Assembly (NCBI GenBank): GCA_964463155.1
Contig: CAYXAY010000003.1
Location: 1-32,000, forward strand
Source of the DNA: an uncultured archaeon
GTDB taxonomy: Archaea > Iainarchaeota > Iainarchaeia > Iainarchaeales > CSSED10-239
Direction: 5' to 3'
Length of the DNA stretch: 32,000 bases
The notes under the pieces were generated by a model. The model was not told the origin of the DNA. It made no database searches and worked only from the letters and a program-made list of their open reading frames with translations. Positions 15,332-27,252 of the stretch are shown in pieces. Each line of letters begins with the position of its first letter. Position 1 is the stretch's first letter. The position numbers were made by a program, and so were the translations under genes.

Positions 15332-16102
15332 CTATATTTTATCTATAAAATCATTTAGTTCTCTTAGTAAACCAGAAAATAGTTGTCTTTTTGATTTTGG
15401 GATATAGTGATTTATTGAATTTTCTAAATATCTTAATTGTGTTTTGTCATTTAATAGTTGAGTCATCTTGTTTTTTGATTGCGTTATTAGGTCGCTGTTG
15501 TTTTCTTTATTAAATTCTTTAATTATTGTGTTTAGTGTATTTTTATTATACTCTAATTGTAATAGGAAATATAAATCATAGCTGTCTTTACCGTCTGTTC
15601 TGTTTACAAAAGCATATAGCTTTTGTAGAATAAATTCTTCTAAGATATATGTAAGATATTGTGTGGTTTTATGAGGCACAAAACCAAAATCTACTATTTT
15701 TGTTGTTGTTTTTGCATTTGTATTTTTGCTGATAATTTTAAACTCTAATTTTATCTTGTCTTTTTGTAGGCCTTGGAAAAAAATATCAAATCTTATTGTT
15801 TCATTCATTATTCTTGGTTTTTCTATTTGATATTCTGGCAATAGTTTTTTTAGTTTTTCATATAGTTCTGCTTTTATTACGTTTATGTTTTTATTAGAAT
15901 ATATATCAAAGTCTATGTCTTCAGAAAATCGTCTTTCTTCTTTTTTTAGATAGACTCTGTTTATCCCTGTTCCGCCTTTTAATACTATATTTAGTTTGTT
16001 TTCTAGTTTTTCAAATATTTTGGATATTTCTAAGTCTTTTAAAATATAGTTAATAGATAGTTCGTTAGTTAATGCAAGTTTTCTTATATTTGTCATATCC
16101 AT
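15332..16102 (-). CDS. AbiEii-like nucleotidyltransferase (type IV TA toxin family), pair 1
   Basis: 256 aa. The pol-beta NTase signature reads LKGGTGINRVYLKKEERRFSEDIDFD. It starts 3 nt after the AbiEi-like gene. TAG stop. Confidence 0.8.
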   Translation of the reverse strand: MDMTNIRKLALTNELSINYILKDLEISKIFEKLENKLNIVLKGGTGINRVYLKKEERRFSEDIDFDIYSNKNINVIKAELYEKLKKLLPEYQIEKPRIMNETIRFDIFFQGLQKDKIKLEFKIISKNTNAKTTTKIVDFGFVPHKTTQYLTYILEEFILQKLYAFVNRTDGKDSYDLYFLLQLEYNKNTLNTIIKEFNKENNSDLITQSKNKMTQLLNDKTQLRYLENSINHYIPKSKRQLFSGLLRELNDFIDKI

Positions 16103-16105
16103 TAT

Positions 16106-16885
16106 TTACCACCAAGAAAGTATTTCCTTTTCTCCAAGATTGTCTTGGAGCAACCATTTTGATATATATATTGATTTGCTGTTGGTGTTTATTAACTTTA
16201 CTTTTGATTTTTTTTTAGAATTGAAATAAAACAGTATGTTTTTTGGGATTTTACAATTTGTCTTGGTTTTTAGCAATTCCAGTATGTAGCCGGTTATTTG
16301 AAATTGTCTTGCTGTTGCGTATTTGTCGTATATTTGTTTTAGTTTATTCCAGTCAATTATTTCTGCGCTATCAAAGATTGCTTTTGATAGTACGCAATAA
16401 CTTCCGCAATACTGCGGCTTATAAAAACAATCAAAGATTGTTTTTTCTAAATTAGAAACAAAGACTCCGTCTTTAAGCAAATAATCAGAATATTTGTTTT
16501 TTAGATTTATGTATTTAAATACGAAATTTCCTTCATATATTGTTTTTGATTTGTTTGTGGTAGAGATAAATATTGTTGTTGGTTCATAGTCTATAAGATT
16601 ATAGTATCTTAATGCTGAGAGAAAGGATATGTAGCCAGGATATATAGATAATGCGTTTTTGTATAGTTCTAGGTTTGTTTTTGCAATAGTTAATGCGTAT
16701 ACGCCTTTTTTTAGGGATATTATGCGCCCTTTGTCCTTTAGTGATTTTAGTAACTCATTGATTCTTTGTCTTGTAAAGTTTGGAAACATCTCTGATATTT
16801 GTTTTGTGGTTATTGCTAAAGGTGTGTCTTTTATGATCTCAAATATCATTTGCTCTTGTTTAGTCAAATAGTTTTTAGTTTCCAT
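16106..16885 (-). CDS. AbiEi-like winged-helix antitoxin/transcriptional regulator, pair 1
   Basis: 259 aa. The N-terminal wHTH ends in the KGVYAL signature (ITTKQISEMFPNFTRQRINELLKSLKDKGRIISLKKGVYAL). It is immediately upstream of the NTase. Confidence 0.7.
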   Translation of the reverse strand: METKNYLTKQEQMIFEIIKDTPLAITTKQISEMFPNFTRQRINELLKSLKDKGRIISLKKGVYALTIAKTNLELYKNALSIYPGYISFLSALRYYNLIDYEPTTIFISTTNKSKTIYEGNFVFKYINLKNKYSDYLLKDGVFVSNLEKTIFDCFYKPQYCGSYCVLSKAIFDSAEIIDWNKLKQIYDKYATARQFQITGYILELLKTKTNCKIPKNILFYFNSKKKSKVKLINTNSKSIYISKWLLQDNLGEKEILSWW

Positions 16886-16982
16886 ATAATATAATTATAG
16901 TACATTTTCTTTAAAAAATTAACTATTTGTGTTTTTAGAAAGTAAACTATCATAAATTAGTTATAGCAGGTTGACAAAAGAG

Positions 16983-17033
16983 GCATTCAAATATTTATAG
17001 GGGTTATCTAATTATAAATTGTCTGATAGCAAG
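16983..17033 (-). repeat. 51-nt intergenic repeat, copy R1
   Basis: GCATTCAAATATTTATAGGGGTTATCTAATTATAAATTGTCTGATAGCAAG. It matches R2 in 47 of 51 positions and lies 98 nt upstream of the AbiEi start (minus strand). A purine-rich tract and a hairpin copy extend the similarity to R3 as far as 17099. Confidence 0.85.
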
Positions 17034-17070
17034 AAGAAAATTTAGAAATTAAAAGAAAAAGAAAAGAAAA

Positions 17071-17099
17071 ATTGTAAGTTATTTATGTTGTTTTACAAT
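17071..17099 (-). terminator. weak hairpin (ATTGTAA-15 nt-TTACAAT), degenerate copy of the S-layer terminator
   Basis: It has 7-bp arms, and the right arm abuts or overlaps the ATPase-1 stop codon. It is alignable with the 20011-20038 hairpin. Confidence 0.35.
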
Positions 17100-18295
17100 C
17101 AATATAAAAAACCAAATAAAAATAAAGGAATTTTATTATATTCACAAACTAAACTATCAACTACAAAATAATCCGCTTTTTGTGTAGTTTTCTTGTTTTC
17201 CCCACCTATTTCAAAAATTTTATTGCCAATAATAAAATCAGCAGATTTTGTTTTTCCGGTCTTAATGTAACATTCTGCATTAGCAGAATATACAAAGAAG
17301 TCTTCCCTTAAAGCGCCGAGATTTGGTGTTTTATTTAGTGTGTGATTAAAAAAATATCTAAATGGTAAATTAAGAAATATTTTTGGATCGGTTCGTATTA
17401 ATGGATATCCTGAATTACAAGATTTTAGTTGTTTAAGTATATTGATTTTTTCTAAATCCCCAATAATAGAAATGATTGTGTTTCTACTTACGCGGTTTAT
17501 TGATTTAGACAAATTAGAATAATTCATTTCAAAAGGAGAAGAGGTTGCTAATAAATATAAAATATTATAAATATCTGTTTCTACTTTCGGATTAATGGAT
17601 CTTAAATTACTAATATCAGAGTATATTATTTTTTTAAACACATTATCTATTGATTTATAAAATTCAGATAGATCTTTACTTTTATTATATAAGAAACCCC
17701 CAAATTTATAATATTCTTGATAATGGGTATAATACCTAGAGTAGTTATTTACTAATTCTTTTCGCGTTTTATAATCTAATATCTCTTCTAGTCTTATTTT
17801 CCTTATATCTTGATCATACATTATGTTTATGTATTCTCTTAAAGAAGCTTGCTTTAATTCATATAATAAAACCCTTCTAGATAAATCCACTCCGCTTAGT
17901 ATGTTTAAAGAAGAAGAGCTTGTAAAATATATTTTTATTTTATTTTCGTCATATATGTTTTTTAGGTGCTGTTGCCAATTTTCTTTGTAGGCAATTTCAT
18001 CTATAAATATATATTTGTATTCTTTTTTTATTAAAAATTTGAGTATATCATAGAGGTTATATTTAGATAAATATATGGAATCTGCAGAAAAATATATTGC
18101 TTCTTTTTTTTTATCAAATAATTGTAATAATAAAGTGGTTTTTCCTATTCCTCTAAGTCCAGTAACGCCTATAAAATAATCTGAATTATAGTTTATTAGT
18201 TCTTCATAAAGATATCTTGTTTTTGGATAATTTTTTATTTGCTCTTTTTTATTTTGGCTTTCCAAAAGCATTTTAGAAAATATTACTTCATTCAT
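17099..18295 (-). CDS. COG1373-type AAA ATPase with DUF4143-like C-terminus (ATPase-1)
   Basis: 398 aa. Walker A is GLRGIGKTT and Walker B is IFIDEI. The C-terminal block is SADFIIGNKIFEIGGE, where the nuclease-like D...ExK reads D...E-I-G. Confidence 0.8.
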   Translation of the reverse strand: MNEVIFSKMLLESQNKKEQIKNYPKTRYLYEELINYNSDYFIGVTGLRGIGKTTLLLQLFDKKKEAIYFSADSIYLSKYNLYDILKFLIKKEYKYIFIDEIAYKENWQQHLKNIYDENKIKIYFTSSSSLNILSGVDLSRRVLLYELKQASLREYINIMYDQDIRKIRLEEILDYKTRKELVNNYSRYYTHYQEYYKFGGFLYNKSKDLSEFYKSIDNVFKKIIYSDISNLRSINPKVETDIYNILYLLATSSPFEMNYSNLSKSINRVSRNTIISIIGDLEKINILKQLKSCNSGYPLIRTDPKIFLNLPFRYFFNHTLNKTPNLGALREDFFVYSANAECYIKTGKTKSADFIIGNKIFEIGGENKKTTQKADYFVVDSLVCEYNKIPLFLFGFLY

Positions 18296-18346
18296 TAGTT
18301 TTCACATATATATATGAACGCAAACAGTTATAAATTGGTCAGCAGA

Positions 18347-18385
18347 TTGACAAAAATGGCGTCCTTTTTGTCAACCTGTTGACAA
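18347..18385. promoter_or_regulatory. overlapping inverted repeats built on TTGACAA half-sites
   Basis: TTGACAAAAA (18347-18356) is the exact reverse complement of TTTTTGTCAA (18365-18374). TTGTCAAC (18368-18375) is the exact reverse complement of GTTGACAA (18378-18385). The middle arm is shared. The site lies 52-90 nt upstream of the ATPase-1 start. Confidence 0.7.
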
Positions 18386-18389
18386 CGGG

Positions 18390-18440
18390 GCATTCAAATA
18401 TTTATATGGGTCATCTAATTATAAATAGTCTGATAGAAAG
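18390..18440 (-). repeat. 51-nt intergenic repeat, copy R2
   Basis: GCATTCAAATATTTATATGGGTCATCTAATTATAAATAGTCTGATAGAAAG. It lies 95 nt upstream of the ATPase-1 start and contains two TATA-like boxes on the minus strand. Confidence 0.85.
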
Positions 18441-18496
18441 GATATTGCGCGTGAACTCATGACAACCAAGATATTTAAAACAATTCATAGATACAA

Positions 18497-19831
18497 CTAT
18501 AAAAAACTAAGTGGCTGTTCAAGCATAACTAAAAATGCACTTACTGGTATTGCTAATGTGTTGTTTTTTTCTAATTCTGTTAAATTTTGTGCATATCTTG
18601 TAAGAAGCAAATGCTCTAAATTTTCATTAATTTTATTTGGAGCAATAATATTTGCTCTGTATTTTACTTCTATTGCTTTGTTATATATTATGAAATCGGT
18701 TTCTTTATTATTTTCAAACACATATTTTAAATTATAGGAATATATGTTGTGTAAATGGCCGGCAACTACATTTTCAACTAAAGTCCCTTTTGTACTTTCA
18801 TTCAATATATAATTTGTAGATTCCATAAATGGATCTAAATTAGAATAGTGTGCATTTATTGAATGTATTATGAAGGGATCTTTAAAATAGAATTTTTTCA
18901 ATCTATCTGTTTGTTTTTCTTTAACTTCAAATAACAGCAATAATTCATCTAAATTAAACAAGTATTCTTTTATTGTGTTTATTGGTAGGTTTGATTTTTG
19001 AGAAATTGTAGTGTATTTTAATGAATTAGATGTGCTTTTGTTTAAAACAGATAATATTGCTATTGCTTTTTGTTTATCTAATTTTTCAAAAATCTTTTGA
19101 ATTAAATCCTCGTAGTAATTTTTTGTAATTGTGTTGTTTGTAAAATATGAATTTATTGTTTCTGGAAATCCACCAGTTAATAAATATATGTCAAAGTATT
19201 TTTCTATTTCTACGGTGTGTGCCTCTAATAGCAGGTATTTTTTTTTAATCATTTCATTGTATTCCTTAGGAGAAGACGTGTTTTCTAATATTAACTGATG
19301 TAGTTTTGGGTTTTTATTTTTTGTAATGGTTAGTAAAAACTGTCTAAAGGTTAATGGGGCCATTATTTTTTGTTCTTCAGATCTGCCTATTAATTTTTGT
19401 TTACATCTTTCAATTGCTCTGGGGTCTGAGCCAGTAACAAAAACGGTTGTTTCTTTTAATATATTCAAGTCACACATTGATTTTAAAAAAGAACAATTGT
19501 CTTTTAGGTTTTGTATTTCATCTAATAATATTATTGAGTTTTTTTTTATATTTATAAAGCCGTCTATTTCTCTTATTAGTTCATTTGGTTTTGTAGTTAT
19601 AAATGCATCTAGATTAAGGTATAGTGCTCTGTCTTTATAGGTATTTGCGATTTGTTTTAGATATATGGTTTTACCTACTCTTCTTGGTCCTTTTATTAGG
19701 TATAGTTTTCCTTGTTCTATTGGTAAAGCAATTCGTTCTATATTGATTGTTGATTTTTTTATATTTGATAAATCCGCATCCTCTAGTTCCCCCCACCAAG
19801 GGTTTTGTTGAATTATTTTGTTTCTTTCCAT
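18497..19831 (-). CDS. COG1373-type AAA ATPase with DUF4143 nuclease-like C-terminus (ATPase-2)
   Basis: 444 aa. It has an N-terminal NPWW, Walker A GPRRVGKT and Walker B ILLDEIQ. The C-terminal block ETDFIIYNKAIEVKY has an intact D...E-x-K. TAG stop. Confidence 0.85.
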   Translation of the reverse strand: MERNKIIQQNPWWGELEDADLSNIKKSTINIERIALPIEQGKLYLIKGPRRVGKTIYLKQIANTYKDRALYLNLDAFITTKPNELIREIDGFINIKKNSIILLDEIQNLKDNCSFLKSMCDLNILKETTVFVTGSDPRAIERCKQKLIGRSEEQKIMAPLTFRQFLLTITKNKNPKLHQLILENTSSPKEYNEMIKKKYLLLEAHTVEIEKYFDIYLLTGGFPETINSYFTNNTITKNYYEDLIQKIFEKLDKQKAIAILSVLNKSTSNSLKYTTISQKSNLPINTIKEYLFNLDELLLLFEVKEKQTDRLKKFYFKDPFIIHSINAHYSNLDPFMESTNYILNESTKGTLVENVVAGHLHNIYSYNLKYVFENNKETDFIIYNKAIEVKYRANIIAPNKINENLEHLLLTRYAQNLTELEKNNTLAIPVSAFLVMLEQPLSFL

Positions 19832-19934
19832 ATATAGTATATTACATAACTCATATATAAATATTTCTAATTATCGTTTATTTTTTAGGTGTTATTTGTA
19901 AAATAACAACTAAATTAGTTAGTTTAATTAAATA

Positions 19935-19985
19935 ATATTCAAATATTTATATCTATCATTTAATTATAAATAGTCTGATAGAAAG
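19935..19985 (-). repeat. 51-nt intergenic repeat, copy R3
   Basis: ATATTCAAATATTTATATCTATCATTTAATTATAAATAGTCTGATAGAAAG. It matches R2 in 45 of 51 positions and lies 104 nt upstream of the ATPase-2 start. Confidence 0.85.
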
Positions 19986-20048: not shown

Positions 20049-22436
20049 TTACATTGATCTGATTGCAGCTATTAACTCTTTAGCAGCTGTTTCTGTATCA
20101 GTGGCAGTCCAACCCGCAACATAGATGTTACCGTTAGCATGCATACCCATTACATAATCTCCTGATTGAGTTAAGTAACTCTCAGTTATGCCAAGAGCCA
20201 ATGTATTAACGATATGCCCACCTACAACAATCCTAGTGCCTGTTACATTAGCAGTATCTAACCTTACCAATGTATTTGGATCCCAAGTAGCTGGAACTTG
20301 TGTTGTATATGTTCGTGTTGCGGCTGGTGTTCCGCCTGGTGTTCCGCCTGGTGTTGAAATTTCTCCTTTACCAACGAATATTTTACCATACAATTGATCC
20401 TCAGGAACTGTTACAGTTAATGTTTCACCATCAACTTCTACCTTTGTACCAAAAATTGTGTATCCGAAACTTAAATCGTCGGATTCTTCTTGGTTTAAGT
20501 TGAAACTTGTAGCAACTACTTGATCTAATCCTGCATCATATGCTGAATCATCAGTATCTACAAGACCACCAGTGTATGCGTCGATATATGCTGTTACATT
20601 TTCGTCTGAATCGTTTATTCTTAATGCAAACATTGATTTTAGGTCTGTATCTGTTACTGTTGTAGCGCTAGAATTAGTCATACCTACATAACCCGTAGCA
20701 TTTGCATCATTTGTTTGGATGTTATAAAATATATTTCCAACAGTCCATGATTGACCAGTATCTAAAGTGTCTGTTGCATTCGAATCTAAGGCTATAGCTA
20801 ATTCTGTAATTTTATTCTGGGTGTTTTCTCTCAGATATACACCATAAGCTATTTTCCTGCTTTCGTTTTTATATAATGGTATTGTTATTGGGACAAATCC
20901 TGTAAAACTACTTGCATTACTTTCTGATGAGTTACCATCGAAATAGAATTTTTCCTGTGCTCCCGCTGTTGATATCGACTTCCATGACCAATTATCAGCA
21001 TTGTCTTTTGATAAAAACTTACCATCTTCATCTTCTAATTGAACTGTGAAATACCCTGATTCATTTGCGGCAGGCTGATTTAAATCATCAGTTGTGTTGA
21101 AGTCAAAGTATAAACTTTTACCATCAATTTCTTGTGTGGTAGTATAGTTGTCTCCGGTTTCGTATGTTCCGTCTTCGTATTCGTAAATGAATATTTTGTG
21201 GTCTTTATCTGATGCGTCAGTATATGATAGATATCCGTCTTCAACAATTATTTCTTTCTCAGATTCATCACTTAAACCAAGGAAACTTATTTTTGCAAAA
21301 TTGTAAGGTAATGATATTTCGTTTCCTCTTCGTAATGCATCATCATCTTTATAACGTATATCTTGATCGTGGTTGTATAAACTTATGGTTGTTATTGTGT
21401 CTCCTTGGGAATAAGTTGTGCCATTAAATTCTACTTTCCATAACTCGTCACCAATATTTGGAAAGTCTTTAACGATCTGGCCATCAGTTAATTTAATTCT
21501 CGCGCTTGTTCCTGAAACAACAGTTACTCTTGAATTGTATACCGTATCTATCTCTGTATCTATTGTTAAAAACTCGTCGAAAATTGTGTCGCCATCGCCA
21601 TATATTTCTGTTGCTAAAGTTATTCCATTTTTACTAATACTCATTTCAACTTCGTAGTTTGTTCCAGAACCAGAACTTTCTAGAATTTCTAATACTGCAA
21701 TGGTGTGTCCTTCTACTTCAAAATTAGCTCCTACACCATAAGGTGTTGTAGATTTGTTTTGTACTAAATCCATTGTTCTGCCGGTATACTTTTCTAAAGT
21801 GTATTGTTTACCGAACAGATTGAATTTTAAATCAGGACTGCCACTATCATTAGTATCTTTTATAATTCCTGGAGTGAATTCTAATTTATACTCTATCCCG
21901 TCTCTGTCTATTGTAGCTATTAAGTCTGCGATATCTTTGTCATCATTAAATTCAATTTTTGCGGTAATATTTAATAATTCTTCAACATTTATTTTATCGT
22001 CTCTGAAAATATCGTCATCTACCCTTACATCGTAGTCTCCAAGTAATGTATAGTCGCTATCATCTAGTTCTAATCTTCTTTGCGTTCCTAAGTCAAATAA
22101 ATCATCACTTAGTTTACCGTCGCCTGTTACTGTAGTTGTTGGAGTTGTTGTTCCTGGTACTGCTGGGATCTCAATTGTGTGTGTTTCTGTCGTGTATGCT
22201 TTTTGTGCGATTGCTGCTGCTATGTTGCCTGCCCAAATACTGTCGCTACCTAATGAATTCAAACCAACGACAATAGTTGCTGCAGGTGCGCCGTCTGCTC
22301 TTATGACATTTCCTTTTGTTACAGGACCGAAATTTGTTCCGCCTGTATTAGCTGCTATTGCTACTGCAAGACCACTTACACCTAATGCAAGTGCTGCCGC
22401 TCCAGCAACTACTTTCTTTACATTTATGTTCTTCAT
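20049..22436 (-). CDS. S-layer (surface-layer) protein
   Basis: 795 aa with a signal peptide (MKNINVKKVVAGAAALALGVSGLAVAIA) and an acidic T/D/N/G-rich body. The N-terminal IVVGLNSLGSDSIWAGNIAAAIA and C-terminal IVVGGHIVNTLA...YVAGWTATDTETAAKELI blocks resemble the N and C domains of methanogen-type S-layer proteins. GC content is visibly higher than in the neighbouring genes. Confidence 0.8.
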   Translation of the reverse strand: MKNINVKKVVAGAAALALGVSGLAVAIAANTGGTNFGPVTKGNVIRADGAPAATIVVGLNSLGSDSIWAGNIAAAIAQKAYTTETHTIEIPAVPGTTTPTTTVTGDGKLSDDLFDLGTQRRLELDDSDYTLLGDYDVRVDDDIFRDDKINVEELLNITAKIEFNDDKDIADLIATIDRDGIEYKLEFTPGIIKDTNDSGSPDLKFNLFGKQYTLEKYTGRTMDLVQNKSTTPYGVGANFEVEGHTIAVLEILESSGSGTNYEVEMSISKNGITLATEIYGDGDTIFDEFLTIDTEIDTVYNSRVTVVSGTSARIKLTDGQIVKDFPNIGDELWKVEFNGTTYSQGDTITTISLYNHDQDIRYKDDDALRRGNEISLPYNFAKISFLGLSDESEKEIIVEDGYLSYTDASDKDHKIFIYEYEDGTYETGDNYTTTQEIDGKSLYFDFNTTDDLNQPAANESGYFTVQLEDEDGKFLSKDNADNWSWKSISTAGAQEKFYFDGNSSESNASSFTGFVPITIPLYKNESRKIAYGVYLRENTQNKITELAIALDSNATDTLDTGQSWTVGNIFYNIQTNDANATGYVGMTNSSATTVTDTDLKSMFALRINDSDENVTAYIDAYTGGLVDTDDSAYDAGLDQVVATSFNLNQEESDDLSFGYTIFGTKVEVDGETLTVTVPEDQLYGKIFVGKGEISTPGGTPGGTPAATRTYTTQVPATWDPNTLVRLDTANVTGTRIVVGGHIVNTLALGITESYLTQSGDYVMGMHANGNIYVAGWTATDTETAAKELIAAIRSM
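20324..20355. repeat. 12-nt tandem repeat (CTGGTGTTCCGC x about 2.7) inside the S-layer gene
   Basis: It encodes GTPGGTPGGTP near the C-terminal domain boundary. Read directly from the sequence. Confidence 0.8.
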
Positions 22437-22644: not shown

Positions 22645-22663
22645 ACCAAGGTAATTCCTTGGT
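22645..22663. other. perfect 7-bp hairpin ACCAAGG-TAATT-CCTTGGT in the S-layer upstream region
   Basis: Read directly. It lies about 210 nt upstream of the S-layer start and about 250 nt downstream of the ATPase-3 stop. Confidence 0.5.
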
Positions 22664-22911
22664 ACAGAGACAAAAATCTATTGTTTTTATGTATAACTTG
22701 TTGTGTTTTTTATGAATTTTACTAAAAATTAAAAATCGGCTATATTATATATAATATTATAACTATTATCTTCAAGACAATTAAACTTCATTAACTTAGT
22801 AAAAACTGGAAGCATCCCTTTTACTTTATAGTTTTTGATAATTTATAAAAATCACCATTAATTACTAAAAATATAATAAAAGTGTATAAAAAACATAAAT
22901 AATTGGTAATT

Positions 22912-24189
22912 TTATATAAGTAGCCACTTATATAATGGAATATAAGATATGAGCTTATTGTCAATTTTTTCCTCTTTAGAGACGTCCCTAGTTATAATTG
23001 TGCCAGTTTTAAGATTTAAAGCAGACATTGCCTCCAAAAGTCCATTAATCTCTCTACTTTCAGTTAAATCATTTATATCTGAACAAACCTGTATTGCTTG
23101 TAGTTGTTTGTTATCTATTATTATAAAATCACACTCTCCTTTTCCTTTATAATAATAAACCTCTTTATTTCGTCTTTTTAATTCTATAAATACAACATTT
23201 TCAAAATTACGACCGGTGTTTGTTCCTGGCCTTTTCAATAAACAATTTGAAAGACCAGTGTCTATTATGTATGCTTTTTTAGGGTTGCTGTTTTGTTTTC
23301 TTTTAGAGTTAGAATATATAGGCACAAAGAAAAAATACATTGTATTATCTATATAATCAGAAAACAAATATAAAGAATCCTTGCTTATTGCTCTATTTTG
23401 GGATTTTAGATAATTGTAATATGCGTTTACTGAAAATAATTGCGAAGGCGCATTCACTAAATATATTAACATATCTTTAATTATATCTGTTTGATTTATG
23501 GAATATCTCTCTATTATGTCTCTAAATACTAATACATTAAAATAATTTTGCAAAATTTCACACCTTATTTGTGGCTCCATATTTATTACTTCTGGAAAGC
23601 CGCCTGTGTATAAGTAATTATCTAATTCTTTTAAAAGAATATATCTTTTTGAAGAATAAACTTCTTCTTTATCTGCTTTTAACCCGTTATATTCTAAATA
23701 TTCCTTAAAACTAAAAGGGTATACATAAATATCATAAGTTCTACCCCTCAACTCAGTAGCTATTTCTTTACTTAACAATTTAGCTGAAGAACCAGTTATG
23801 AATATTGTGCAATTTTCTTTATCGTATAACCGCCTTACAAATTTTTGCCAATTAGAAACACATTGAATTTCATCAAAAAAGAAATGAATGTGTTTTTCTT
23901 TATTTTTTGGATATAATTCAAAATAATAATCTAATATCTTTTGAAAATCTTCAGTTTTAAAATCGTAAAATCTTTCATCTTCAAAATTAAGATAAACTAT
24001 TTGATCTTTAGAAGCGTCTTTTAGATTTGTATATATTATTTGATATAATAGGCTTGTTTTTCCGGATCTTCTTGGGCCTATTACCGCAAATATTTTGTTT
24101 ATATTAGGTATTTTGTAATCTCTGTATAATAATTTTTTTTCTGGACAGCCTTCTAATAACATTATTTTAAATAATTCCTTATCTAACAT
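22912..24189 (-). CDS. COG1373-type AAA ATPase with DUF4143-like C-terminus (ATPase-3)
   Basis: 425 aa from ATG 24187-24189 (MLDKELF...), preceded by GGTGGG. Walker A is GPRRSGKTS and Walker B is FFFDEIQ. In the C-terminal block GECDFIIIDNKQLQAIQVC the ExK position reads Q-V-C. The 48 extra codons in the track ORF translate the operator repeats and are not credible. Confidence 0.85.
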   Translation of the reverse strand: MLDKELFKIMLLEGCPEKKLLYRDYKIPNINKIFAVIGPRRSGKTSLLYQIIYTNLKDASKDQIVYLNFEDERFYDFKTEDFQKILDYYFELYPKNKEKHIHFFFDEIQCVSNWQKFVRRLYDKENCTIFITGSSAKLLSKEIATELRGRTYDIYVYPFSFKEYLEYNGLKADKEEVYSSKRYILLKELDNYLYTGGFPEVINMEPQIRCEILQNYFNVLVFRDIIERYSINQTDIIKDMLIYLVNAPSQLFSVNAYYNYLKSQNRAISKDSLYLFSDYIDNTMYFFFVPIYSNSKRKQNSNPKKAYIIDTGLSNCLLKRPGTNTGRNFENVVFIELKRRNKEVYYYKGKGECDFIIIDNKQLQAIQVCSDINDLTESREINGLLEAMSALNLKTGTIITRDVSKEEKIDNKLISYIPLYKWLLI

Positions 24190-24230
24190 AATCCCACCTA
24201 TAATATTTATAATGCAAACAAAATAAAAAG

Positions 24231-24281
24231 GTTTCCTTCTAAAAAGGATACCTTCGGGGAAACGTTTCCTTCTAAAAAGGA
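24231..24281. promoter_or_regulatory. operator-like repeats in the divergent ATPase-3 / AbiEii promoter region
   Basis: There are two identical 18-mers GTTTCCTTCTAAAAAGGA (24231-24248 and 24264-24281), each containing TCCTT-N5-AAGGA. A perfect 12-bp palindrome GGAAACGTTTCC lies at 24258-24269. GGATACC occurs at 24246-24252 and 24293-24299. TATA-like boxes flank the region on both sides. Confidence 0.7.
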
Positions 24282-24341
24282 CACTTGTCACAGGATACCT
24301 AAAATTATATATTTTTATAATTTTCGGTATCATATATATTT

Positions 24342-24998
24342 ATGGAAATAAAAATACTAAATCAATTAAAAAAACAACTACATAAAGATATTGGACTTTT
24401 ACAAGACGAAGTTATGGATATCTTGATATCTTGTTTTCCAGAAACATTAGTGTTTCATGGAGGCACTAGCATCTGGAGATGCTATAATGGCAAAAGATTC
24501 TCAGAAGATTTGGATTTTTATCTAAATAATGAGAAATACAACGAAGAGCTATTAAAAGAAAAAATAAAAAGCGCAGGATTAACCATAAATAAAATAAAAA
24601 CAACAGACAATGTTGTTTTCTCAAAAATAACAGCCGGAAAAACAGAAATAAGAGTGGAAATCAGACTACTACTAAAAACAAACAAAATATTTACAAAAAA
24701 AACAATAACTGAATATCAAAGAATAAATGGTACAACAACCACGATTTACGCTCTGTCAATAGACCATCTTATAATAGAAAAGGCACAAGCCTACAAAAAT
24801 AGAAAACTAATAAGAGACGTTTATGATGTTTATTTCCTATCTACAAACAATATAAAACAAGAAACAAAACAAGAACTAAAAGAAATAATAAACAACTGGG
24901 AAAAACCAATAGATGAAGAAAACCTAAAAACCATAATATACACTGGAATTGCTCCAAAATACACAGAAATGCTTTATGCAATAAACCGGAGAATATAA
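24342..24998 (+). CDS. AbiEii-like nucleotidyltransferase, pair 2 (upstream gene of the pair)
   Basis: 218 aa. The NTase signature reads FHGGTSIWRCYNGKRFSEDLDFY. Its TAA stop shares one base with the ATG of the next gene (TAATG). Confidence 0.8.
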   Translation: MEIKILNQLKKQLHKDIGLLQDEVMDILISCFPETLVFHGGTSIWRCYNGKRFSEDLDFYLNNEKYNEELLKEKIKSAGLTINKIKTTDNVVFSKITAGKTEIRVEIRLLLKTNKIFTKKTITEYQRINGTTTTIYALSIDHLIIEKAQAYKNRKLIRDVYDVYFLSTNNIKQETKQELKEIINNWEKPIDEENLKTIIYTGIAPKYTEMLYAINRRI

Positions 24999-25576
24999 TG
25001 AACTATACAAAAGAGATAATAAAAAAATACAAAAACAAGAAATTATTCACTACAAGAGACATCAGACTAAACTTTAAGATTAAGCCAAACTATCTTAACC
25101 TATTAATACATAATCTATTAAAACAAAAAAAAATAACAAAACTTGCAAAAGGAACATATACTTTTAGAGAAGAACTAGAAATAGTCGGATTTGCATATTT
25201 CCCTTTCTATTATGGATTACAAGACGCACTATCGTATCACGGACTTTGGAAACAAGAAACTATACCTGTAATTATAACCTCTAAAAAAATAAAACCAGGC
25301 ATAAGGCAAATAAACAACAATAACATATTACTAAGAAGAATAAACAGAAAATATCTGTTTGGAGTAGAGTATAAACAAATTAATGATATTGATATACCTA
25401 TTAGCGACATAGAAAAAACATTAATAGATTTGGTGTATTACAGACAACCAATAAATAAAGAAACAATAACTGAATTTAGAAAAAGAATAAACAAAGAAAA
25501 ACTAAATAACTATTTAGAAAAATACCCAGTTACTTTTAAAAAAAAGGCACTTACTAAAATCAATTTTTTGATTTAA
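24998..25576 (+). CDS. AbiEi-like winged-helix protein, pair 2 (downstream gene of the pair)
   Basis: 192 aa. The N-terminal wHTH ends in KGTYTF (LFTTRDIRLNFKIKPNYLNLLIHNLLKQKKITKLAKGTYTF). The C-terminal half resembles the other two AbiEi-like proteins (IEKTLIDL, compared with LEKTIFDC and KEKLFIDC). Confidence 0.62.
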   Translation: MNYTKEIIKKYKNKKLFTTRDIRLNFKIKPNYLNLLIHNLLKQKKITKLAKGTYTFREELEIVGFAYFPFYYGLQDALSYHGLWKQETIPVIITSKKIKPGIRQINNNNILLRRINRKYLFGVEYKQINDIDIPISDIEKTLIDLVYYRQPINKETITEFRKRINKEKLNNYLEKYPVTFKKKALTKINFLI

Positions 25577-25780
25577 AAGATTTTGCTTCACGACCGAATT
25601 GAATAGCAATTTAGAATGGGTTTATACAAGTAATATTGAAGAAATAAAACACGAATTAACTGATTTCCTGAAAACTGTTTTTTAAAAGATTTTAAAAATT
25701 ATTTTGAATATTAAAGTAAGACAGAATAGCCCTCCCCCCGATTATTGTATTAAATTATACAAAAAGGTATAATTCAGCGT

Positions 25781-26497
25781 ATGAAATGGGTTTATAAATG
25801 CATATATACTATAAGTATAAATATGGATTTAGCTAAACTTAAAAAATTAGCCATATTTACCAGTAAGGATTTAAAACTACACTACGGAATTAATTATCCA
25901 GAAATGTATATTTGTAGAAATAAAACAAAAATTATAACTATAGAGAAAGGAAAATATACACTTTGCAAAGACCCTTTTTGCTACGCTACACAAATTATTA
26001 ATCCATCATATATCTCTTTTCTATCTGCACTTAATTTTTACGGATATTCTACTCAAATACCACTAAAAATTACAGTCGCAGTAAAAAAACAAAAAAAAGA
26101 ATTAACGCAAATAAACTTCGTAAAAATAAACACAAATTACTTTTTTGGATATAATAAAATTAAATATGGAGATTTTGATTTATTTATTGCAGACAAAGAA
26201 AAGTTGTTTATTGATTGTTTAGCATATCAAAAACAAGTACAAGTAAATGATCTTGCCGGGCTATTAAAAGACAATTTAGATAAAAATAAACTGATCAAAT
26301 ATCTGAACAAAATCGGTAATCTTAATCTAATAAGAAGGGCGGGTTATCTTTTAGACATTATTGGAATAGACATTTACGATAACTACGCCAAAATTACTAA
26401 AATTAATAATTATATACTACTTAATAGAAATCTTAAAAAATCAAAGATATATAATAAGAAATGGAAATTAAATATAAATGAGGAGATTAATTTATGA
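25781..26497 (+). CDS. AbiEi-like winged-helix protein, pair 3
   Basis: 238 aa as given in the track. An alternative leaderless start at ATG 25823 (MDLAKLKKL...) gives 224 aa. The wHTH ends in KGKYTL, and the YISFLSALNFYG block is shared with pair 1 (YISFLSALRYYN). It overlaps the next gene by ATGA. Confidence 0.65.
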   Translation: MKWVYKCIYTISINMDLAKLKKLAIFTSKDLKLHYGINYPEMYICRNKTKIITIEKGKYTLCKDPFCYATQIINPSYISFLSALNFYGYSTQIPLKITVAVKKQKKELTQINFVKINTNYFFGYNKIKYGDFDLFIADKEKLFIDCLAYQKQVQVNDLAGLLKDNLDKNKLIKYLNKIGNLNLIRRAGYLLDIIGIDIYDNYAKITKINNYILLNRNLKKSKIYNKKWKLNINEEINL

Positions 26498-27252
26498 TAG
26501 ATATAAATGAATTAAAGGAATATCAAAAAAAATTAAACCTTAATCTAGGACAAACAGAAAAGAATTACATACATTCTGCGATTCTTTTTGCAATATCTAA
26601 ATTGTATCCTGAAAAATTTATATTCAAAGGGGGCACTTGCCTAATGTTGTGTTATAGTTTAGATAGATTTTCCGAAGCTCTTGACTTCACATTATTGGAA
26701 CCGAATTTGGACATAGATGTTTGTTTAAATCAAATAAAAGCATTTTTGCAAAATTATGATTTTATTATAGATTACAAAGTTGAAAAAAAAGAAAAATACG
26801 AAGACATCTTTGTTTATTTTTATGGCCCATTGTACAAACACACAAATAACACTAGATGTAAGATAGTACTTGATTTTTCTAACCGAAAAGATAATCTACT
26901 GCCTGGTATCCCGCGCCCTGTAAATCACATATATAGAGAATTTCCTTTGTTTTATGTAAACACATTAGATATAAATGAAATATTTGCTGAAAAAATTAGA
27001 GCAATCATAACTAGAAACAAAGCAAGAGACCTATTTGATTTATATTTTTTACTTAAAAAAGGAGCCAAGGCAGACATAGAATTAATCAATAAAAAATTAG
27101 ATGTTTATGGGTATAAATTTAATTTAAATAAATTAATTGAAGCAATAAACAATAAAGAAACAATATGGAAATCCGAATTGTCACAATTAATTATTAATGT
27201 CCCTGATTTTAAAACGGTGTCTACAGAAGTTATTACAAATCTTAAGAAATAA
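26494..27252 (+). CDS. AbiEii-like nucleotidyltransferase, pair 3 (variant metal-binding motif)
   Basis: 252 aa with a GAGGAG RBS. The signature reads FKGGTCLMLCYSLDRFSEALDF. The first Asp of the DxD seen in the two paralogues is Ala here. Confidence 0.78.
   Translation: MIDINELKEYQKKLNLNLGQTEKNYIHSAILFAISKLYPEKFIFKGGTCLMLCYSLDRFSEALDFTLLEPNLDIDVCLNQIKAFLQNYDFIIDYKVEKKEKYEDIFVYFYGPLYKHTNNTRCKIVLDFSNRKDNLLPGIPRPVNHIYREFPLFYVNTLDINEIFAEKIRAIITRNKARDLFDLYFLLKKGAKADIELINKKLDVYGYKFNLNKLIEAINNKETIWKSELSQLIINVPDFKTVSTEVITNLKK

What the first reader, a model, noticed from the sequence alone, without database searches (positions are those of the whole stretch)
15332..27252. Defence-like island: three AbiEi/AbiEii-like pairs plus three COG1373-type ATPase paralogues wrapped around the S-layer gene
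Seen: within 12 kb there are three two-gene modules. Each pairs a winged-helix protein whose HTH ends in KGxY (16106-16885, 24998-25576, 25781-26497) with a pol-beta-type nucleotidyltransferase carrying GGT...RFSE(D/A)(I/L)DF (15332-16102, 24342-24998, 26494-27252). There are also three paralogous P-loop ATPases (17099-18295, 18497-19831, 22912-24189) with GxRxxGKT, hhhDEI and a C-terminal DFII...ExK-like end. Established: AbiEi/AbiEii is a type IV toxin-antitoxin and abortive-infection pair characterised in Lactococcus and Streptococcus. COG1373 ATPases (AAA_14 plus DUF4143) have been reported as enriched in defence islands but have no assigned mechanism. Inference: an ATPase gene sits directly beside an AbiE pair on both flanks of the S-layer gene. 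On the left they are co-directional. On the right they are divergent and share an operator-rich promoter. This suggests a functional ATPase-AbiE partnership rather than chance clustering, in a lineage where, to my knowledge, neither has been studied.
Basis: partly seen in the sequence, partly recalled or inferred. Interest (0 to 1): 0.7.

Follow-up and report, generated by a model that had tools for sequence, protein, structure and literature searches.

The report
Archaeal defence hotspot of independent modules
This stretch of an uncultured archaeon's chromosome is a variable "defence island" around the cell-surface-layer gene, made of three AbiE toxin-antitoxin pairs and three ATPase-nuclease genes of known families; comparison with relatives shows these are swapped in and out independently, so they are not a dedicated ATPase-AbiE partnership.

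Summary
All nine ORFs exist at the stated coordinates. Three are AbiEii nucleotidyltransferases, three are AbiEi-type winged-helix partners, and three are AAA_14(/DUF4143) ATPases, which PADLOC calls candidate system PDC-S01.

The proposed ATPase-AbiE partnership is not supported:
- Two related genomes share the same frame (S-layer gene to MJ0538-family gene) but carry different cargo. AbiE pair 3 occurs without the ATPase. The ATPase-3 orthologue occurs without AbiE pairs 2 and 3. All are under purifying selection.
- Relatives of AbiE pair 2 keep their reversed gene order and their TATA-bracketing operator but have no ATPase neighbour.
- Only about 4-6% of loci in either direction hold the other family within 5-10 kb, and the architecture is never the same.

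Co-localisation is above random placement, as expected for defence islands. ATPase paralogues cluster with each other more often (14-19% of loci) than with AbiE.

A 2026 survey already reports AbiE and PDC-S01 as enriched in DPANN archaea.

Extra findings: AbiEii-3 carries Asp-to-Ala at a catalytic residue whose mutation abolishes toxicity in Streptococcus. An unexplained ~50-nt element recurs upstream of ATPase-2, ATPase-1 and AbiEi-1.

Verdict: a new member of known kinds, of modest interest.

The parts
14258..15145 (-). Bro-N domain protein, which matches PADLOC candidate PDC-S13. It marks the left edge of the accessory island.
   Evidence: Pfam Bro-N 4e-06. PADLOC PDC-S13 PDLC04920 3e-110.
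15332..16102 (-). AbiEii-1, a pol-beta-type nucleotidyltransferase toxin. Motifs I-IV are intact (GGT; RFSEDIDF; K..R; KDSYD).
   Evidence: Pfam AbiEii 4e-22. PADLOC AbiEii 2e-20. Alignment.
16106..16885 (-). AbiEi-1, the winged-helix antitoxin/repressor partner. It lies upstream of AbiEii-1, which is the canonical order.
   Evidence: PADLOC AbiEi PDLC02267 3e-41. Pfam AbiEi_1 22.2 bits, exactly at the cut-off. NCBIfam TAA_AbiEi only 21.6 bits against a 150 cut-off.
16982..17031 (-). Copy 3 of the repeated ~50-nt upstream element 'E'. It lies about 97 nt upstream of the AbiEi-1 ATG. The full similarity extends over about 16942-17096.
   Evidence: 3 copies against 0.02 expected. Weak terminal inverted repeats of 22 nt at 77%.
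17099..18295 (-). ATPase-1, with an AAA_14 domain only. Walker A (GLRGIGKT) and Walker B (IFIDEI) are intact. The GGFPE motif and the C-terminal nuclease motif are degenerate (D...EIG).
   Evidence: Pfam AAA_14 3e-23 with no DUF4143 hit. PADLOC PDC-S01 2e-20. hmmalign.
18335..18438 (-). Copy 2 of element E (core 18389-18438), followed by two palindromic TTGTCAAC/GTTGACAA-type sites (18335-18385). All of this lies upstream of ATPase-1.
   Evidence: As RNA the region folds at -39.1 kcal/mol, z = -5.5.
18497..19831 (-). ATPase-2, with AAA_14 and DUF4143. It is the only copy with a canonical D...ExK nuclease motif (TDFII...EVK).
   Evidence: Pfam AAA_14 1e-21 and DUF4143 5e-13. PDC-S01 1.5e-24..
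19934..19983 (-). Copy 1 of element E. It lies about 103 nt upstream of the ATPase-2 ATG and directly downstream of the S-layer gene stop codon and a T-rich tract.
20049..22436 (-). Putative S-layer or surface protein of 795 aa with a signal-peptide-like N-terminus. It has higher G+C than its flanks and is the conserved left anchor of the right-hand hotspot.
   Evidence: Pfam S_layer_C 18.1 bits, below the 23.9 cut-off. G+C 0.33-0.37 against 0.25-0.28 in the flanks. N-terminal homologues occupy the same position in L086 (2e-61) and L002 (2e-41).
22912..24189 (-). ATPase-3, with AAA_14 and DUF4143. The fold is Orc1/Cdc6-like AAA+ plus lid plus winged helix plus a C-terminal PD-(D/E)xK-like module. 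The third nuclease motif reads QVC instead of ExK.
   Evidence: Pfam AAA_14 1e-39 and DUF4143 2e-14. PDC-S01 5e-111. AF2 pLDDT 89.9. Foldseek top hit 2qby_A, Orc1/Cdc6..
24227..24331 (.). Operator-like sites in the divergent intergenic region. There are two 25-nt near-palindromic direct repeats (24227-24251 and 24260-24284). There is also an inverted repeat, GATACC...GGTATC (24294-24309 / 24316-24331), that brackets a TATA-like box about 10 nt before the AbiEii-2 ATG.
   Evidence: 2 hits against 0.01 expected. The same ATACC..TATA..TATA..GGTAT repeat lies upstream of AbiEii-2 homologues that have no ATPase (L170, L171, L172).
24342..24998 (+). AbiEii-2, a short-form (218 aa) nucleotidyltransferase toxin. 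It is encoded first in its operon, which is the reversed order.
   Evidence: Pfam AbiEii 3e-18. The subfamily of ~213-219-aa proteins is shown. The reversed order is conserved in L170-L174.
24998..25576 (+). AbiEi-2, a 192-aa winged-helix partner encoded downstream of the toxin, with an ATGA start/stop overlap.
   Evidence: Pfam AbiEi_4 25.3 bits against a 25 cut-off. PADLOC AbiEi 1e-20.
25823..26497 (+). It is 80% identical to the orthologue in relative A.
   Evidence: PADLOC AbiEi 6e-36. BLASTP against L086 starts at Met15. The ~100 bp just upstream is conserved.
26494..27252 (+). AbiEii-3, full length and canonical except for Ala62 (codon GCT at 26677-26679) in place of the first Asp of the DxD catalytic motif. 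It is predicted to be non-toxic.
   Evidence: Pfam AbiEii 1e-33. D62 is present in 33 of 33 other family members, including the 79% orthologue. The codon is shown. The equivalent D67A mutation abolishes toxicity in S. agalactiae AbiEii (PMC3985639).
27253..27927 (-). MJ0538-family gene, the conserved right anchor of the hotspot.
   Evidence: 71% identical to L086 5722-6399, which is annotated PF27325 MJ0538. 69% identical to L002 2-619.

Best explanation
The region is a chromosomal hotspot for accessory defence and toxin-antitoxin genes in an uncultured, AT-rich archaeon. Homologues of its accessory genes come mainly from DPANN lineages. The hotspot flanks the putative S-layer gene and contains self-contained modules that were acquired, kept or lost independently.

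(1) Three AbiE pairs. Each encodes a DUF1814/pol-beta nucleotidyltransferase toxin (AbiEii). By analogy with the Streptococcus and Mycobacterium homologues, the toxin blocks growth by nucleotidylating a cellular target, probably tRNA. Each pair also encodes a winged-helix partner (AbiEi) that neutralises the toxin and represses its own promoter through inverted repeats. Pair 2 belongs to a subfamily with toxin-first gene order and an operator that brackets the TATA box. The toxin of pair 3 carries a catalytic Asp-to-Ala change and is probably inactive.

(2) Three solitary PDC-S01/COG1373 genes. Each encodes an Orc1/Cdc6-like AAA+ ATPase with a winged helix and a C-terminal PD-(D/E)xK-type module. 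These are most plausibly ATP-dependent nucleic-acid sensors or cutters that act alone. Only ATPase-2 keeps the canonical D...ExK motif.

(3) A Bro-N/PDC-S13 gene.

The ATPase-AbiE adjacency comes from accretion of the gene families that are most abundant in such genomes into one permissive site. It does not reflect a dedicated two-family system.

Shown: family membership, motif state, synteny with variable cargo, purifying selection on each module without the other, operator conservation in the pair-2 subfamily, and the census frequencies.

Inferred: toxicity, autoregulation, nuclease activity and antiviral role. None of these was tested here.
For: -
- The paralogues are only 24-30% identical, which fits separate acquisitions and rules out recent local duplication.
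- The hotspot frame is shared by three genomes with different cargo. The window has ATPase-3 | AbiE-2 | AbiE-3. Relative A (L086/L088) has a 252/200-aa pair | Fic | AbiE-3. Relative B (L002) has a 253/199-aa pair | ORF6N (PDC-S05) | ATPase-3 orthologue.
- dN/dS is 0.09-0.16 for AbiEi-3, AbiEii-3, ATPase-3 and the flanking core genes, so each module is maintained without the other.
- AbiE-2 relatives keep the reversed order and the ATACC..TATA..GGTAT operator but have no ATPase beside them.
- Forward census: 3 of 79 ATPase loci have AbiE within 10 kb. No AbiE family appears in the top-25 PADLOC or Pfam lists for 143 flanking ORFs.
- Reverse census: 5 of 80 AbiEii loci have an ATPase within 5 kb. 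Density is flat from 0 to 5 kb, and there are five different architectures.
- Viral contigs: 1 of 32 AbiEii loci has an ATPase nearby.
- The ATPases cluster with divergent paralogues of their own family more often. Eleven of 79 loci hold two or more full-length copies at 23-39% identity.
- One homologue sits alone inside an ABC-transporter operon.
- Literature: PDC-S01 is the fourth commonest defence candidate, with 9,986 copies in 7,747 archaeal genomes. DPANN archaea are enriched in AbiE, SoFic and PDCs (PMC12988326).
- Structure: the ATPase-3 model has pLDDT 89.9 and its best matches are Orc1/Cdc6 and RFC. DUF4143/COG1373 is listed as a PD-(D/E)XK family (PMC3424549).
Against: - Co-localisation is not zero. 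The reverse census found about 14 ATPase genes per Mb of AbiE flank. The archaeal average computed from the figures in PMC12988326 is roughly 0.7 per Mb. AAA_14 is the single commonest Pfam family among AbiE neighbours, at 5 of 145. Some selective or mechanistic link beyond shared island residence therefore cannot be excluded.
- Every version of the hotspot contains at least one nucleotidyltransferase-type pair. The 252/253-aa protein in the relatives is a sub-threshold AbiEii-like protein, so relative B is not strictly 'AbiE-free'.
- On the left flank, ATPase-2, ATPase-1 and AbiEi-1 share a ~50-nt upstream element, which could impose common regulation.
- The censuses are small (about 80 loci each) and are biased to one ATPase clade and one AbiEii clade. 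Many of the contigs are short.
- Partners encoded elsewhere in those genomes would not be seen.
- No function was tested. A PDC-S01 representative gave no protection in E. coli (bioRxiv 10.1101/2024.09.26.614923), so 'defence' is itself unproven for the ATPases.
Confidence: 0.8

Rival explanations
1. The COG1373 ATPase and the AbiE pair form a functional three-gene system. For example, the ATPase-nuclease could sense infection and release or back up the AbiEii toxin, and the adjacency would be selected for that reason.
For: - An ATPase lies next to an AbiE pair on both sides of the S-layer gene.
- AAA_14 is the commonest Pfam family among AbiE neighbours (5 of 145), and PDC-S01 models hit 3 of 145.
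- Five of 80 AbiEii loci and 3 of 79 ATPase loci show co-localisation, which is above random placement.
- L156 repeats the pattern 'two tandem ATPases then an AbiE pair'.
- L179 has an AbiEii-like ORF 219 bp upstream of an ATPase.
- Operator-like repeats sit between ATPase-3 and AbiEii-2.
Against: - Penetrance is about 4-6%, and orientation and spacing differ in every case.
- The ATPase-3 orthologue persists under purifying selection without AbiE-2 or AbiE-3, and AbiE-3 persists without the ATPase.
- AbiE-2 relatives never have the ATPase in the three independent neighbourhoods examined, yet they keep the operator. The operator therefore belongs to AbiE.
- The three ATPases and the three AbiE pairs are each deeply divergent, with no sign of co-divergence.
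- The ATPases occur alone in housekeeping contexts.
Confidence: 0.06
2. Local, strain-specific co-regulation or a cassette array. The repeated ~50-nt (up to ~150-nt) element upstream of ATPase-2, ATPase-1 and AbiEi-1 would be a shared promoter/operator, or a recombination or MITE-like junction. In that case the left-flank units are transcribed under common control or were assembled as cassettes. On the right, AbiEi-2 bound to its operators might also influence ATPase-3.
For: - There are three copies of the element against 0.02 expected. All are on the coding strand, each 96-106 nt upstream of the next start codon.
- The element is about 90% identical between copies, while the genes it precedes are only about 26% identical or are unrelated.
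- The copy upstream of ATPase-1 carries additional palindromes and a stable hairpin, z = -5.5.
- The pair-2 operators lie 38-95 bp from the ATPase-3 start.
Against: - The element is seen only in this strain among 213 fetched loci, so its conservation cannot be assessed.
- Terminal inverted repeats are found for one copy only.
- There are no transcript data.
- The sigma-70-type scan is uninformative for archaea.
- Co-regulation would be a by-product of assembly and would not be evidence of a joint mechanism.
Confidence: 0.15
3. The island is not an antiviral system at all. The AbiE pairs would act as addiction or stabilisation modules, and the COG1373 genes as selfish or otherwise non-defence DNA-binding ATPases. 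Both would simply accumulate in a recombination-permissive region next to a fast-evolving surface-protein gene.
For: - AbiE stabilises mobile elements as well as giving phage resistance (PMC3985639; PMC11062541, listed).
- PDC-S01 gave no protection against T4, T5 or T7 in E. coli.
- PDCs are described as often not associated with known defence islands.
- ATPase homologues are inserted among housekeeping genes, and pseudogenised fragments are common.
- AbiEii-3 carries an inactivating-type substitution.
Against: - Other neighbours in the three versions of the hotspot are defence-associated: Fic/SoFic-like, ORF6N/PDC-S05 (which protected E. coli) and Bro-N/PDC-S13.
- Purifying selection acts on the ATPase and AbiE genes.
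- A single negative heterologous assay of one PDC-S01 member says little about archaeal viruses.
Confidence: 0.25

Closest known systems
AbiE (AbiEi/AbiEii) of Lactococcus lactis and Streptococcus agalactiae. It was described as a type IV toxin-antitoxin and abortive-infection system, and a 2026 preprint argues it is type VII.
   Same: - The toxin is a DUF1814/pol-beta nucleotidyltransferase with motifs I-IV.
- The partner is a winged-helix protein.
- The operons are bicistronic and overlapping.
- Inverted repeats lie in the promoter.
   Different: - The host is an archaeon.
- Pair 2 has toxin-first order, a short 218-aa toxin, and an operator that brackets a TATA-like box instead of a bacterial promoter.
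- Pair 3 carries a natural D-to-A change at the position equivalent to D67.
- The AbiEi proteins are barely detected by Pfam or NCBIfam models.
- No function was tested.
MenAT (MenT nucleotidyltransferase toxins) of Mycobacterium tuberculosis
   Same: The toxins belong to the same DUF1814 superfamily. [quoted passage not shown] The AbiEi homologue there autoregulates through multiple inverted repeats (PMC7319586).
   Different: The relationship is distant. Target and nucleotide specificity are unknown for the archaeal proteins.
PDC-S01 (a PADLOC 'phage defence candidate'), equivalent to COG1373 and to AAA_14 + DUF4143 ATPases
   Same: - The architecture is a single gene encoding an ATPase fused to a PD-(D/E)XK-superfamily domain.
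- The family is abundant in Archaea.
- ATPase-3 matches model PDLC04787 end to end, at 5e-111.
   Different: - ATPase-1 lacks a detectable DUF4143 domain.
- ATPase-1 and ATPase-3 depart from the canonical D...ExK motif.
- Antiviral function is unproven for the family.
Orc1/Cdc6 replication initiators and RFC clamp-loader subunits (structural neighbours only)
   Same: The AAA+ core, lid and winged-helix arrangement is the same. The best Foldseek hit is 2qby_A, bound to DNA.
   Different: - No sequence-level relationship was detected beyond the P-loop.
- The archaeal proteins have an extra C-terminal nuclease-like module.
- TM-scores are low (0.25-0.37), so this is resemblance at the domain level.
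Defence islands and integration hotspots between conserved core genes (Makarova et al. 2011, as cited in PMC12988326)
   Same: Anchors are conserved and cargo is variable. Unrelated defence and TA modules are mixed together, and G+C is lower than in neighbouring core genes.
   Different: - No integrase, transposase or tRNA gene lies in the window.
- One anchor is the putative S-layer gene itself.

Membership tests
AbiEii (DUF1814 nucleotidyltransferase toxin) | A significant match to the family profile (Pfam PF08843) above the curated cut-off. | tested here: met
   The scores are 79.7, 67.1 and 117.6 bits against a cut-off of 22.5.
AbiEii (DUF1814 nucleotidyltransferase toxin) | Catalytic motifs I (hG[G/S]), II (R..DhD), III (K..R) and IV (+DxxD), each of which is required for toxicity in S. 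agalactiae (PMC3985639). | tested here: inconclusive
   AbiEii-1 and AbiEii-2 have all four motifs. AbiEii-3 has ALD instead of DLD in motif II, where A62 corresponds to D67. Two of the three copies meet this feature, and the third does not.
AbiEii (DUF1814 nucleotidyltransferase toxin) | Growth inhibition on expression, and nucleotide binding or transfer. | not testable with these tools
   This needs expression and biochemical assays.
AbiEi (antitoxin/repressor) | An N-terminal winged-helix domain plus a C-terminal AbiEi domain, detected by family profiles. | tested here: met
   PADLOC AbiEi PDLC02267 scores 3e-41, 1e-20 and 6e-36 over nearly full length. Pfam support is only borderline (22.2 bits, 25.3 bits, none), and NCBIfam is far below its cut-off.
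AbiE system | A bicistronic operon with abiEi upstream of abiEii. | tested here: inconclusive
   Pairs 1 and 3 are canonical, with a 3-nt gap and a 4-nt overlap respectively. Pair 2 is reversed, and this order is conserved in its subfamily.
AbiE system | Inverted-repeat operators in the promoter, bound by AbiEi for autorepression. | tested here: inconclusive
   Pair 2 has conserved operator-like repeats, both in the window and in its homologues. For pairs 1 and 3 there are only weak or unassigned repeats. Binding was not tested.
AbiE system | Protection against virus infection (the abortive-infection phenotype). | not testable with these tools
PDC-S01 / COG1373 (AAA_14 + DUF4143) | An AAA_14 P-loop domain with intact Walker A and B motifs. 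| tested here: met
   All three copies match: 3e-23, 1e-21 and 1e-39. GxRxxGKT and hhhDEI are present.
PDC-S01 / COG1373 (AAA_14 + DUF4143) | A DUF4143 region with a C-terminal PD-(D/E)xK-type fold and motif. | tested here: inconclusive
   DUF4143 is detected in ATPase-2 and ATPase-3 but not in ATPase-1. The alpha-beta-beta-beta-alpha-beta module is predicted in ATPase-3. The canonical D...ExK motif is found only in ATPase-2; ATPase-3 reads QVC and ATPase-1 reads EIG.
PDC-S01 / COG1373 (AAA_14 + DUF4143) | Demonstrated anti-phage activity. | not testable with these tools
   The one published test I found gave no protection in E. coli B against T4, T5 or T7.
   The rates are 3 of 79, 5 of 80 and 1 of 32 loci, and the architectures are all different. 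Close relatives carry one family without the other.
Defence island / variable hotspot | Conserved flanking genes with differing accessory cargo in related genomes, where the cargo is enriched in defence or TA families. | tested here: met
   The S-layer gene and the MJ0538-family gene act as anchors, and there are three different cargo sets.
Archaeal S-layer protein | A profile match above the family cut-off. | tested here: not met
   Pfam S_layer_C scores 18.1 bits against a 23.9 cut-off, and there is no NCBIfam hit. 'Putative surface protein' is the safer label.

The most novel reading that the evidence does not exclude
The left flank may be an organised array: [E]-ATPase-2-[E]-ATPase-1-[E]-AbiEi-1/AbiEii-1. 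In it, a shared ~50-150-nt element acts as a common promoter/operator or as a cassette-junction recombination site. Divergent PDC-S01 ATPase-nucleases and an AbiE pair would then be assembled and expressed as one co-regulated defence array. The clustering of deeply divergent PDC-S01 paralogues seen in 14-19% of loci across bacteria, archaea and viral contigs would reflect a diversified sensor repertoire and not mere accretion.
Probability: 0.12. Interest if true: 0.55.

Novelty: new member of a known kind. Interest (0 to 1): 0.3.

Why it matters
If the partnership had held, it would have given a first functional context for one of the commonest uncharacterised "defence candidate" families (PDC-S01/COG1373). 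The evidence points the other way: these genes and AbiE pairs are independent residents of a variable hotspot. That is useful as a caution against reading adjacency inside defence islands as mechanism.

Several smaller leads come out of the work:
- There is a well-delimited three-genome hotspot next to a surface-layer gene in DPANN-like archaea.
- There is an archaeal AbiE subfamily with toxin-first order and a conserved operator that brackets the TATA box.
- AbiEii-3 is a natural catalytic-site variant suitable for a simple toxicity test.
- PDC-S01 genes tend to occur as clusters of very divergent paralogues.
- An unexplained repeated upstream element could reveal how such islands are assembled or regulated.

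Tried and rejected
- The exact-sequence look-up of AbiEii-3 found nothing on record, either from the window sequence or as P0121. I never recovered the source NCBI contig (34,716 bp) or an organism name.
- tRNA and Rfam scans found nothing in the window.
- The sigma-70 promoter and intrinsic-terminator scan gave counts equal to shuffled expectation, and it is not applicable to archaea.
- The profile search of solved structures with the ATPase alignment returned only P-loop matches to RecA.
- The first literature search was swamped by unrelated matches to 'AAA14'.
- I considered that the 199/253-aa pair in the relatives was unrelated to AbiE. I rejected that as too strong, because the larger protein scores 21.8 bits on Pfam AbiEii, just under the cut-off. 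hhalign against my AbiEii-3-clade alignment gave nothing (probability 1.8%).
- I considered recent tandem duplication as the origin of the three ATPases and three AbiE pairs. I rejected it because they are only 24-30% identical.
- I considered the repeated element E to be a MITE. This is inconclusive: one copy has weak 22-nt terminal inverted repeats and the others have none. There were no matches in the viral contigs.
- I considered the pair-2 operators to be a shared ATPase/AbiE regulatory device. I rejected this as the primary reading because homologous operators occur where no ATPase is present.

Full report
**Observation**

The window is an AT-rich archaeal chromosome segment. Positions 194-10257 carry core genes: Topo VI-B, a KH-domain protein, RIO kinase, aIF1A, aIF2-beta, a presenilin-type peptidase, MCM and RPA. 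An accessory stretch follows, and core-like genes resume at 27253. No tRNA or Rfam family is present.

- Pfam assigns AbiEii (PF08843) to 15332-16102(-), 24342-24998(+) and 26494-27252(+).
- Pfam assigns AAA_14 to all three ATPases, and DUF4143 to two of them.
- The three winged-helix partners are weak or absent in Pfam, but they match PADLOC's AbiEi model PDLC02267 at 3e-41, 1e-20 and 6e-36.
- The ATPases match PADLOC's candidate system PDC-S01. ATPase-3 matches at 5e-111.

The copies within each family are only 24-30% identical. They are ancient relatives, not local duplicates.

Pair 2 has the toxin gene first. AbiEi-3 probably starts at 25823. The S-layer label rests on a sub-threshold profile hit.

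**What the parts are**

An alignment with 31 homologues shows that AbiEii-1 and AbiEii-2 keep all the nucleotidyltransferase motifs. AbiEii-3 reads RFSEALDF where all 33 other sequences read RFSED(L/I)DF, including its own 79% orthologue. The codon is GCT, where relatives encode Asp (GAT is one base away). The position corresponds exactly to D67 of S. agalactiae AbiEii: R63-x3-D67-x-D69 there, against R58-x3-A62-x-D64 here. In that protein, D67A alone abolished toxicity (PMC3985639). AbiEii-3 is therefore probably a dead toxin, although the gene as a whole has evolved under purifying selection (dN/dS about 0.09).

For the ATPases, an AlphaFold model of ATPase-3 (pLDDT 89.9, pTM 0.89) shows an AAA+ core, a helical lid, a winged-helix region and a C-terminal alpha-beta-beta-beta-alpha-beta module. 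The best PDB matches are DNA-bound Orc1/Cdc6 and the RFC subunits. Weaker matches go to Can2/Cdn1 nucleases and to Avs4. DUF4143/COG1373 was already catalogued as a PD-(D/E)XK family (PMC3424549), and PDC-S01 has been described as an ATPase fused to such a domain (PMC12988326). Walker A and B motifs are intact in all three copies. Only ATPase-2 keeps the canonical D...ExK motif.

**Test of the partnership: close relatives**

ATPase-3 and AbiE pair 2 occur together only in the window and in an 8.3-kb contig from the same sample.

A related genome (L086/L087/L088) carries AbiE pair 3 at 79-80% identity in the same place. It lies next to the MJ0538-family gene (71% identical) and the radical-SAM gene. 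Its upstream neighbours there are a Fic gene and a 200/252-aa gene pair, followed by the S-layer gene.

A second relative (L002) has the ATPase-3 orthologue (76% identical) directly beside the MJ0538-family gene. An ORF6N/PDC-S05 gene, a 199/253-aa pair and the S-layer gene follow.

One frame therefore holds three cargo sets:
- The window has ATPase-3 | AbiE-2 | AbiE-3.
- Relative A has a 252/200-aa pair | Fic | AbiE-3.
- Relative B has a 253/199-aa pair | ORF6N | ATPase-3.

AbiE-3 and ATPase-3 each persist without the other, with dN/dS of 0.09-0.14. That is similar to the flanking core genes, although dS is near saturation.

One caveat must be stated. The 252/253-aa protein is a sub-threshold AbiEii-like nucleotidyltransferase (21.8 and 15.1 bits against a cut-off of 22.5), and its partner looks weakly like a winged-helix protein. 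Every version of the hotspot therefore holds some nucleotidyltransferase-type pair.

**Test of the partnership: the divergent promoter**

The 152-bp region between ATPase-3 and AbiEii-2 contains two 25-nt near-palindromic repeats. They give 2 hits against 0.01 expected and occur nowhere else in the window. The region also has an inverted repeat, GATACC...GGTATC, around a TATA-like box about 10 nt before the AbiEii-2 start.

Three independent relatives of AbiEii-2 (51-55% identical; L170, L171 and L172-L174) keep three things. They keep the toxin-first order, a 191-192-aa partner, and the same ATACC..TATA..TATA..GGTAT repeat at the same distance from the start codon. None of them has an ATPase neighbour. 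Their neighbours are Fic, a PDDEXK_1 protein, Kae1/TsaD, pyrophosphatase and CysRS.

The operator is therefore a property of this AbiE subfamily and not a device shared with the ATPase.

**Test of the partnership: census**

Forward census. I took 80 loci of ATPase-3-like genes from one genome per species (36-51% identical, bacteria and archaea).
- Seventy-nine loci had a recognisable ATPase ORF.
- AbiE genes lay within 10 kb in three of them (L067, L068, L084).
- Among 143 ORFs at +/-2 gene positions, the top-25 PADLOC and Pfam family lists contained no AbiE family. The top entries were glycosyltransferases, methyltransferases, minimal nucleotidyltransferases and housekeeping genes.
- A 54% homologue sits between the binding-protein and permease genes of an ABC transporter.

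Reverse census. I took 80 AbiEii loci from metagenome contigs, with 424 kb of flank in total.
- Five loci hold an ATPase within 5 kb.
- The density is flat at about 19 per Mb from 0 to 5 kb.
- The five arrangements are all different: convergent and abutting, downstream co-directional, two tandem copies upstream, and two on the opposite strand 2-3 kb away.
- AAA_14 was the commonest Pfam family among 145 neighbours (5 hits, and 3 for the PDC-S01 models). This is comparable to mad2 (5), PIN (3) and Polbeta (3).

Viral contigs. One of 32 AbiEii loci had an ATPase 5 kb away, and one ATPase locus had an adjacent AbiEii-like ORF.

Background rate. PMC12988326 reports 9,986 PDC-S01 genes in 7,747 archaeal genomes averaging 1.8 Mb. 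By my arithmetic that is about 0.7 per Mb. The observed co-localisation is therefore well above random placement. It has low penetrance and no fixed architecture, which is the signature of defence-island co-residence.

The ATPases' commonest special neighbour is another ATPase. Fifteen of 79 loci hold a second AAA_14 ORF. Eleven of those hold two or more full-length copies at 23-39% identity, with up to four full-length copies in tandem (five AAA_14 ORFs counting a fragment). Tandem copies recur in the viral contigs.

**Context from the literature**

The 2026 survey of 7,747 archaeal genomes reports the following.
- PDC-S01 is the fourth commonest defence candidate overall, and it is enriched in Archaea.
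- DPANN archaea are poor in CRISPR and restriction-modification systems but enriched in AbiE, SoFic and several PDCs.
- PDCs are often outside classical defence islands.

A cold-seep study tested one PDC-S01 representative in E. coli against T4, T5 and T7. It was not among the four candidates that protected. PDC-S05 did protect.

AbiE was defined as a type IV toxin-antitoxin and abortive-infection system. A 2026 preprint argues that it is type VII, with neutralisation by antitoxin-induced toxin auto-phosphorylation.

The homologues of the window's accessory genes come mostly from Woese-, Nano-, Micr-, Aenigm- and Diapherotrites-type archaea. This fits that picture, but I could not recover the organism's name.

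**An unexplained feature**

The three consecutive intergenic regions on the left flank share a 50-nt core, (T/G)CTATCAGAC(A/T)ATTTATAATTA(G/A)AT...TATAAATATTTGAAT. The copies lie at 16982-17031, 18389-18438 and 19934-19983. All are on the coding strand, and each is 96-106 nt upstream of the start codon of AbiEi-1, ATPase-1 or ATPase-2 respectively. That is 3 hits against 0.02 expected.

The similarity extends further in pairs. The ATPase-1 copy has an extra 31-nt palindrome insert and folds into a stable hairpin (z = -5.5).

The element is about 90% identical between copies, while the genes it precedes are about 26% identical or unrelated. It has therefore been spread or homogenised recently, or it is strongly constrained.

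It occurs in none of the other 212 loci except the same-strain contig. It has no Rfam match and shows terminal inverted repeats for one copy only.

It could be a shared promoter/operator, a cassette junction or a small repeat element. This is the one piece of evidence that leaves room for local co-regulation of the ATPases and AbiE pair 1, and I could not test it further.

**Verdict**

The island is a variable hotspot that flanks a putative S-layer gene and is built from autonomous modules of known kinds. The proposed dedicated ATPase-AbiE partnership is not supported.

What remains is defence-island-level co-localisation, which is already consistent with published surveys, plus a strain-specific repeated upstream element of unknown meaning.

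Novelty: a new member of known kinds. Interest: modest.

Noticed in passing
window 26677-26679 (codon 62 of AbiEii-3, gene 26494-27252): AbiEii-3 has Ala (GCT) where all 33 aligned relatives, including its 79% orthologue, have the first Asp of the catalytic DxD motif. The equivalent D67A mutation abolishes toxicity in S. agalactiae AbiEii. The gene otherwise shows purifying selection, so the change is probably recent, or it could be an assembly error.
   Followed up: yes
window 16982-17031, 18389-18438 and 19934-19983 (all on the - strand): A ~50-nt core element is repeated upstream of AbiEi-1, ATPase-1 and ATPase-2, and the similarity extends to about 150 nt in pairs. Each copy lies 96-106 nt before the start codon (3 copies against 0.02 expected). 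It was found only in this strain, and its nature is unresolved: promoter/operator, cassette junction or MITE-like repeat.
   Followed up: partly
window 18335-18385: Two palindromic sites of the TTGTCAAC..GTTGACAA type lie 32 nt apart just upstream of ATPase-1. They form a stable hairpin if transcribed (z = -5.5). This may be an operator or attenuator specific to ATPase-1.
   Followed up: partly
L005-L084 (e.g. L020, L035, L014); L176-L178 and L180-L181: PDC-S01-type ATPase genes often occur as clusters of very divergent paralogues (23-39% identity). Eleven of 79 species-level loci have two or more full-length copies within 10 kb, and several more have fragments or frameshifted copies. The same pattern appears in viral/proviral contigs.
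   Followed up: partly
L086 1281-2619 (-); L002 3419-4757 (+): A conserved overlapping gene pair (200 + 252 aa, 60% identical between the two relatives) occupies the same hotspot. The larger protein has IGGWA / SRDIDLGF / KDxCD motifs and a sub-threshold Pfam AbiEii score (21.8 bits). The smaller protein has weak winged-helix hits. It is probably a very divergent AbiE-like pair that the PADLOC search missed and that scores below Pfam's cut-off.
   Followed up: partly
window 10337-10857 (-): A MazF/PemK-like toxin gene (10337-10654; Pfam 8e-07) has an overlapping upstream 68-aa ORF (10651-10857) that could be its antitoxin. The pair lies right after the RPA gene, at the boundary between core and accessory DNA.
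   Followed up: no
window 24342-25576; L170, L171, L172-L174: This is an archaeal AbiE subfamily with toxin-first gene order, a short toxin of ~213-219 aa and a 191-192-aa partner. An inverted repeat, ATACC-N9-TATA..TATA-N9-GGTAT, lies about 10 nt upstream of the toxin start codon. That position suggests repression by occluding the TATA box of a near-leaderless transcript.
   Followed up: partly
L004 8747-12167: A 54%-identical homologue of ATPase-3 is inserted between the substrate-binding-protein and permease genes of an ABC transporter operon. This suggests that these single genes can insert on their own.
   Followed up: no
window 11033-14255 (+): A 768-aa FlaI/VirB11-type secretion ATPase (T2SSE, 2.5e-19; NCBIfam FlaI far below its cut-off) is preceded by a small membrane protein with arrestin/Spo0M-like hits and a 116-aa ORF. 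This cluster lies between the MazF-like pair and the Bro-N gene, and its role is unknown.
   Followed up: no
window 20049-22436 compared with L086 3-728 and L002 5160-6158: The putative S-layer protein is conserved at its N-terminus (40-50% identity over about 240-290 aa) but diverges quickly beyond that. This fits a fast-evolving surface protein that sits next to a defence hotspot.
   Followed up: partly
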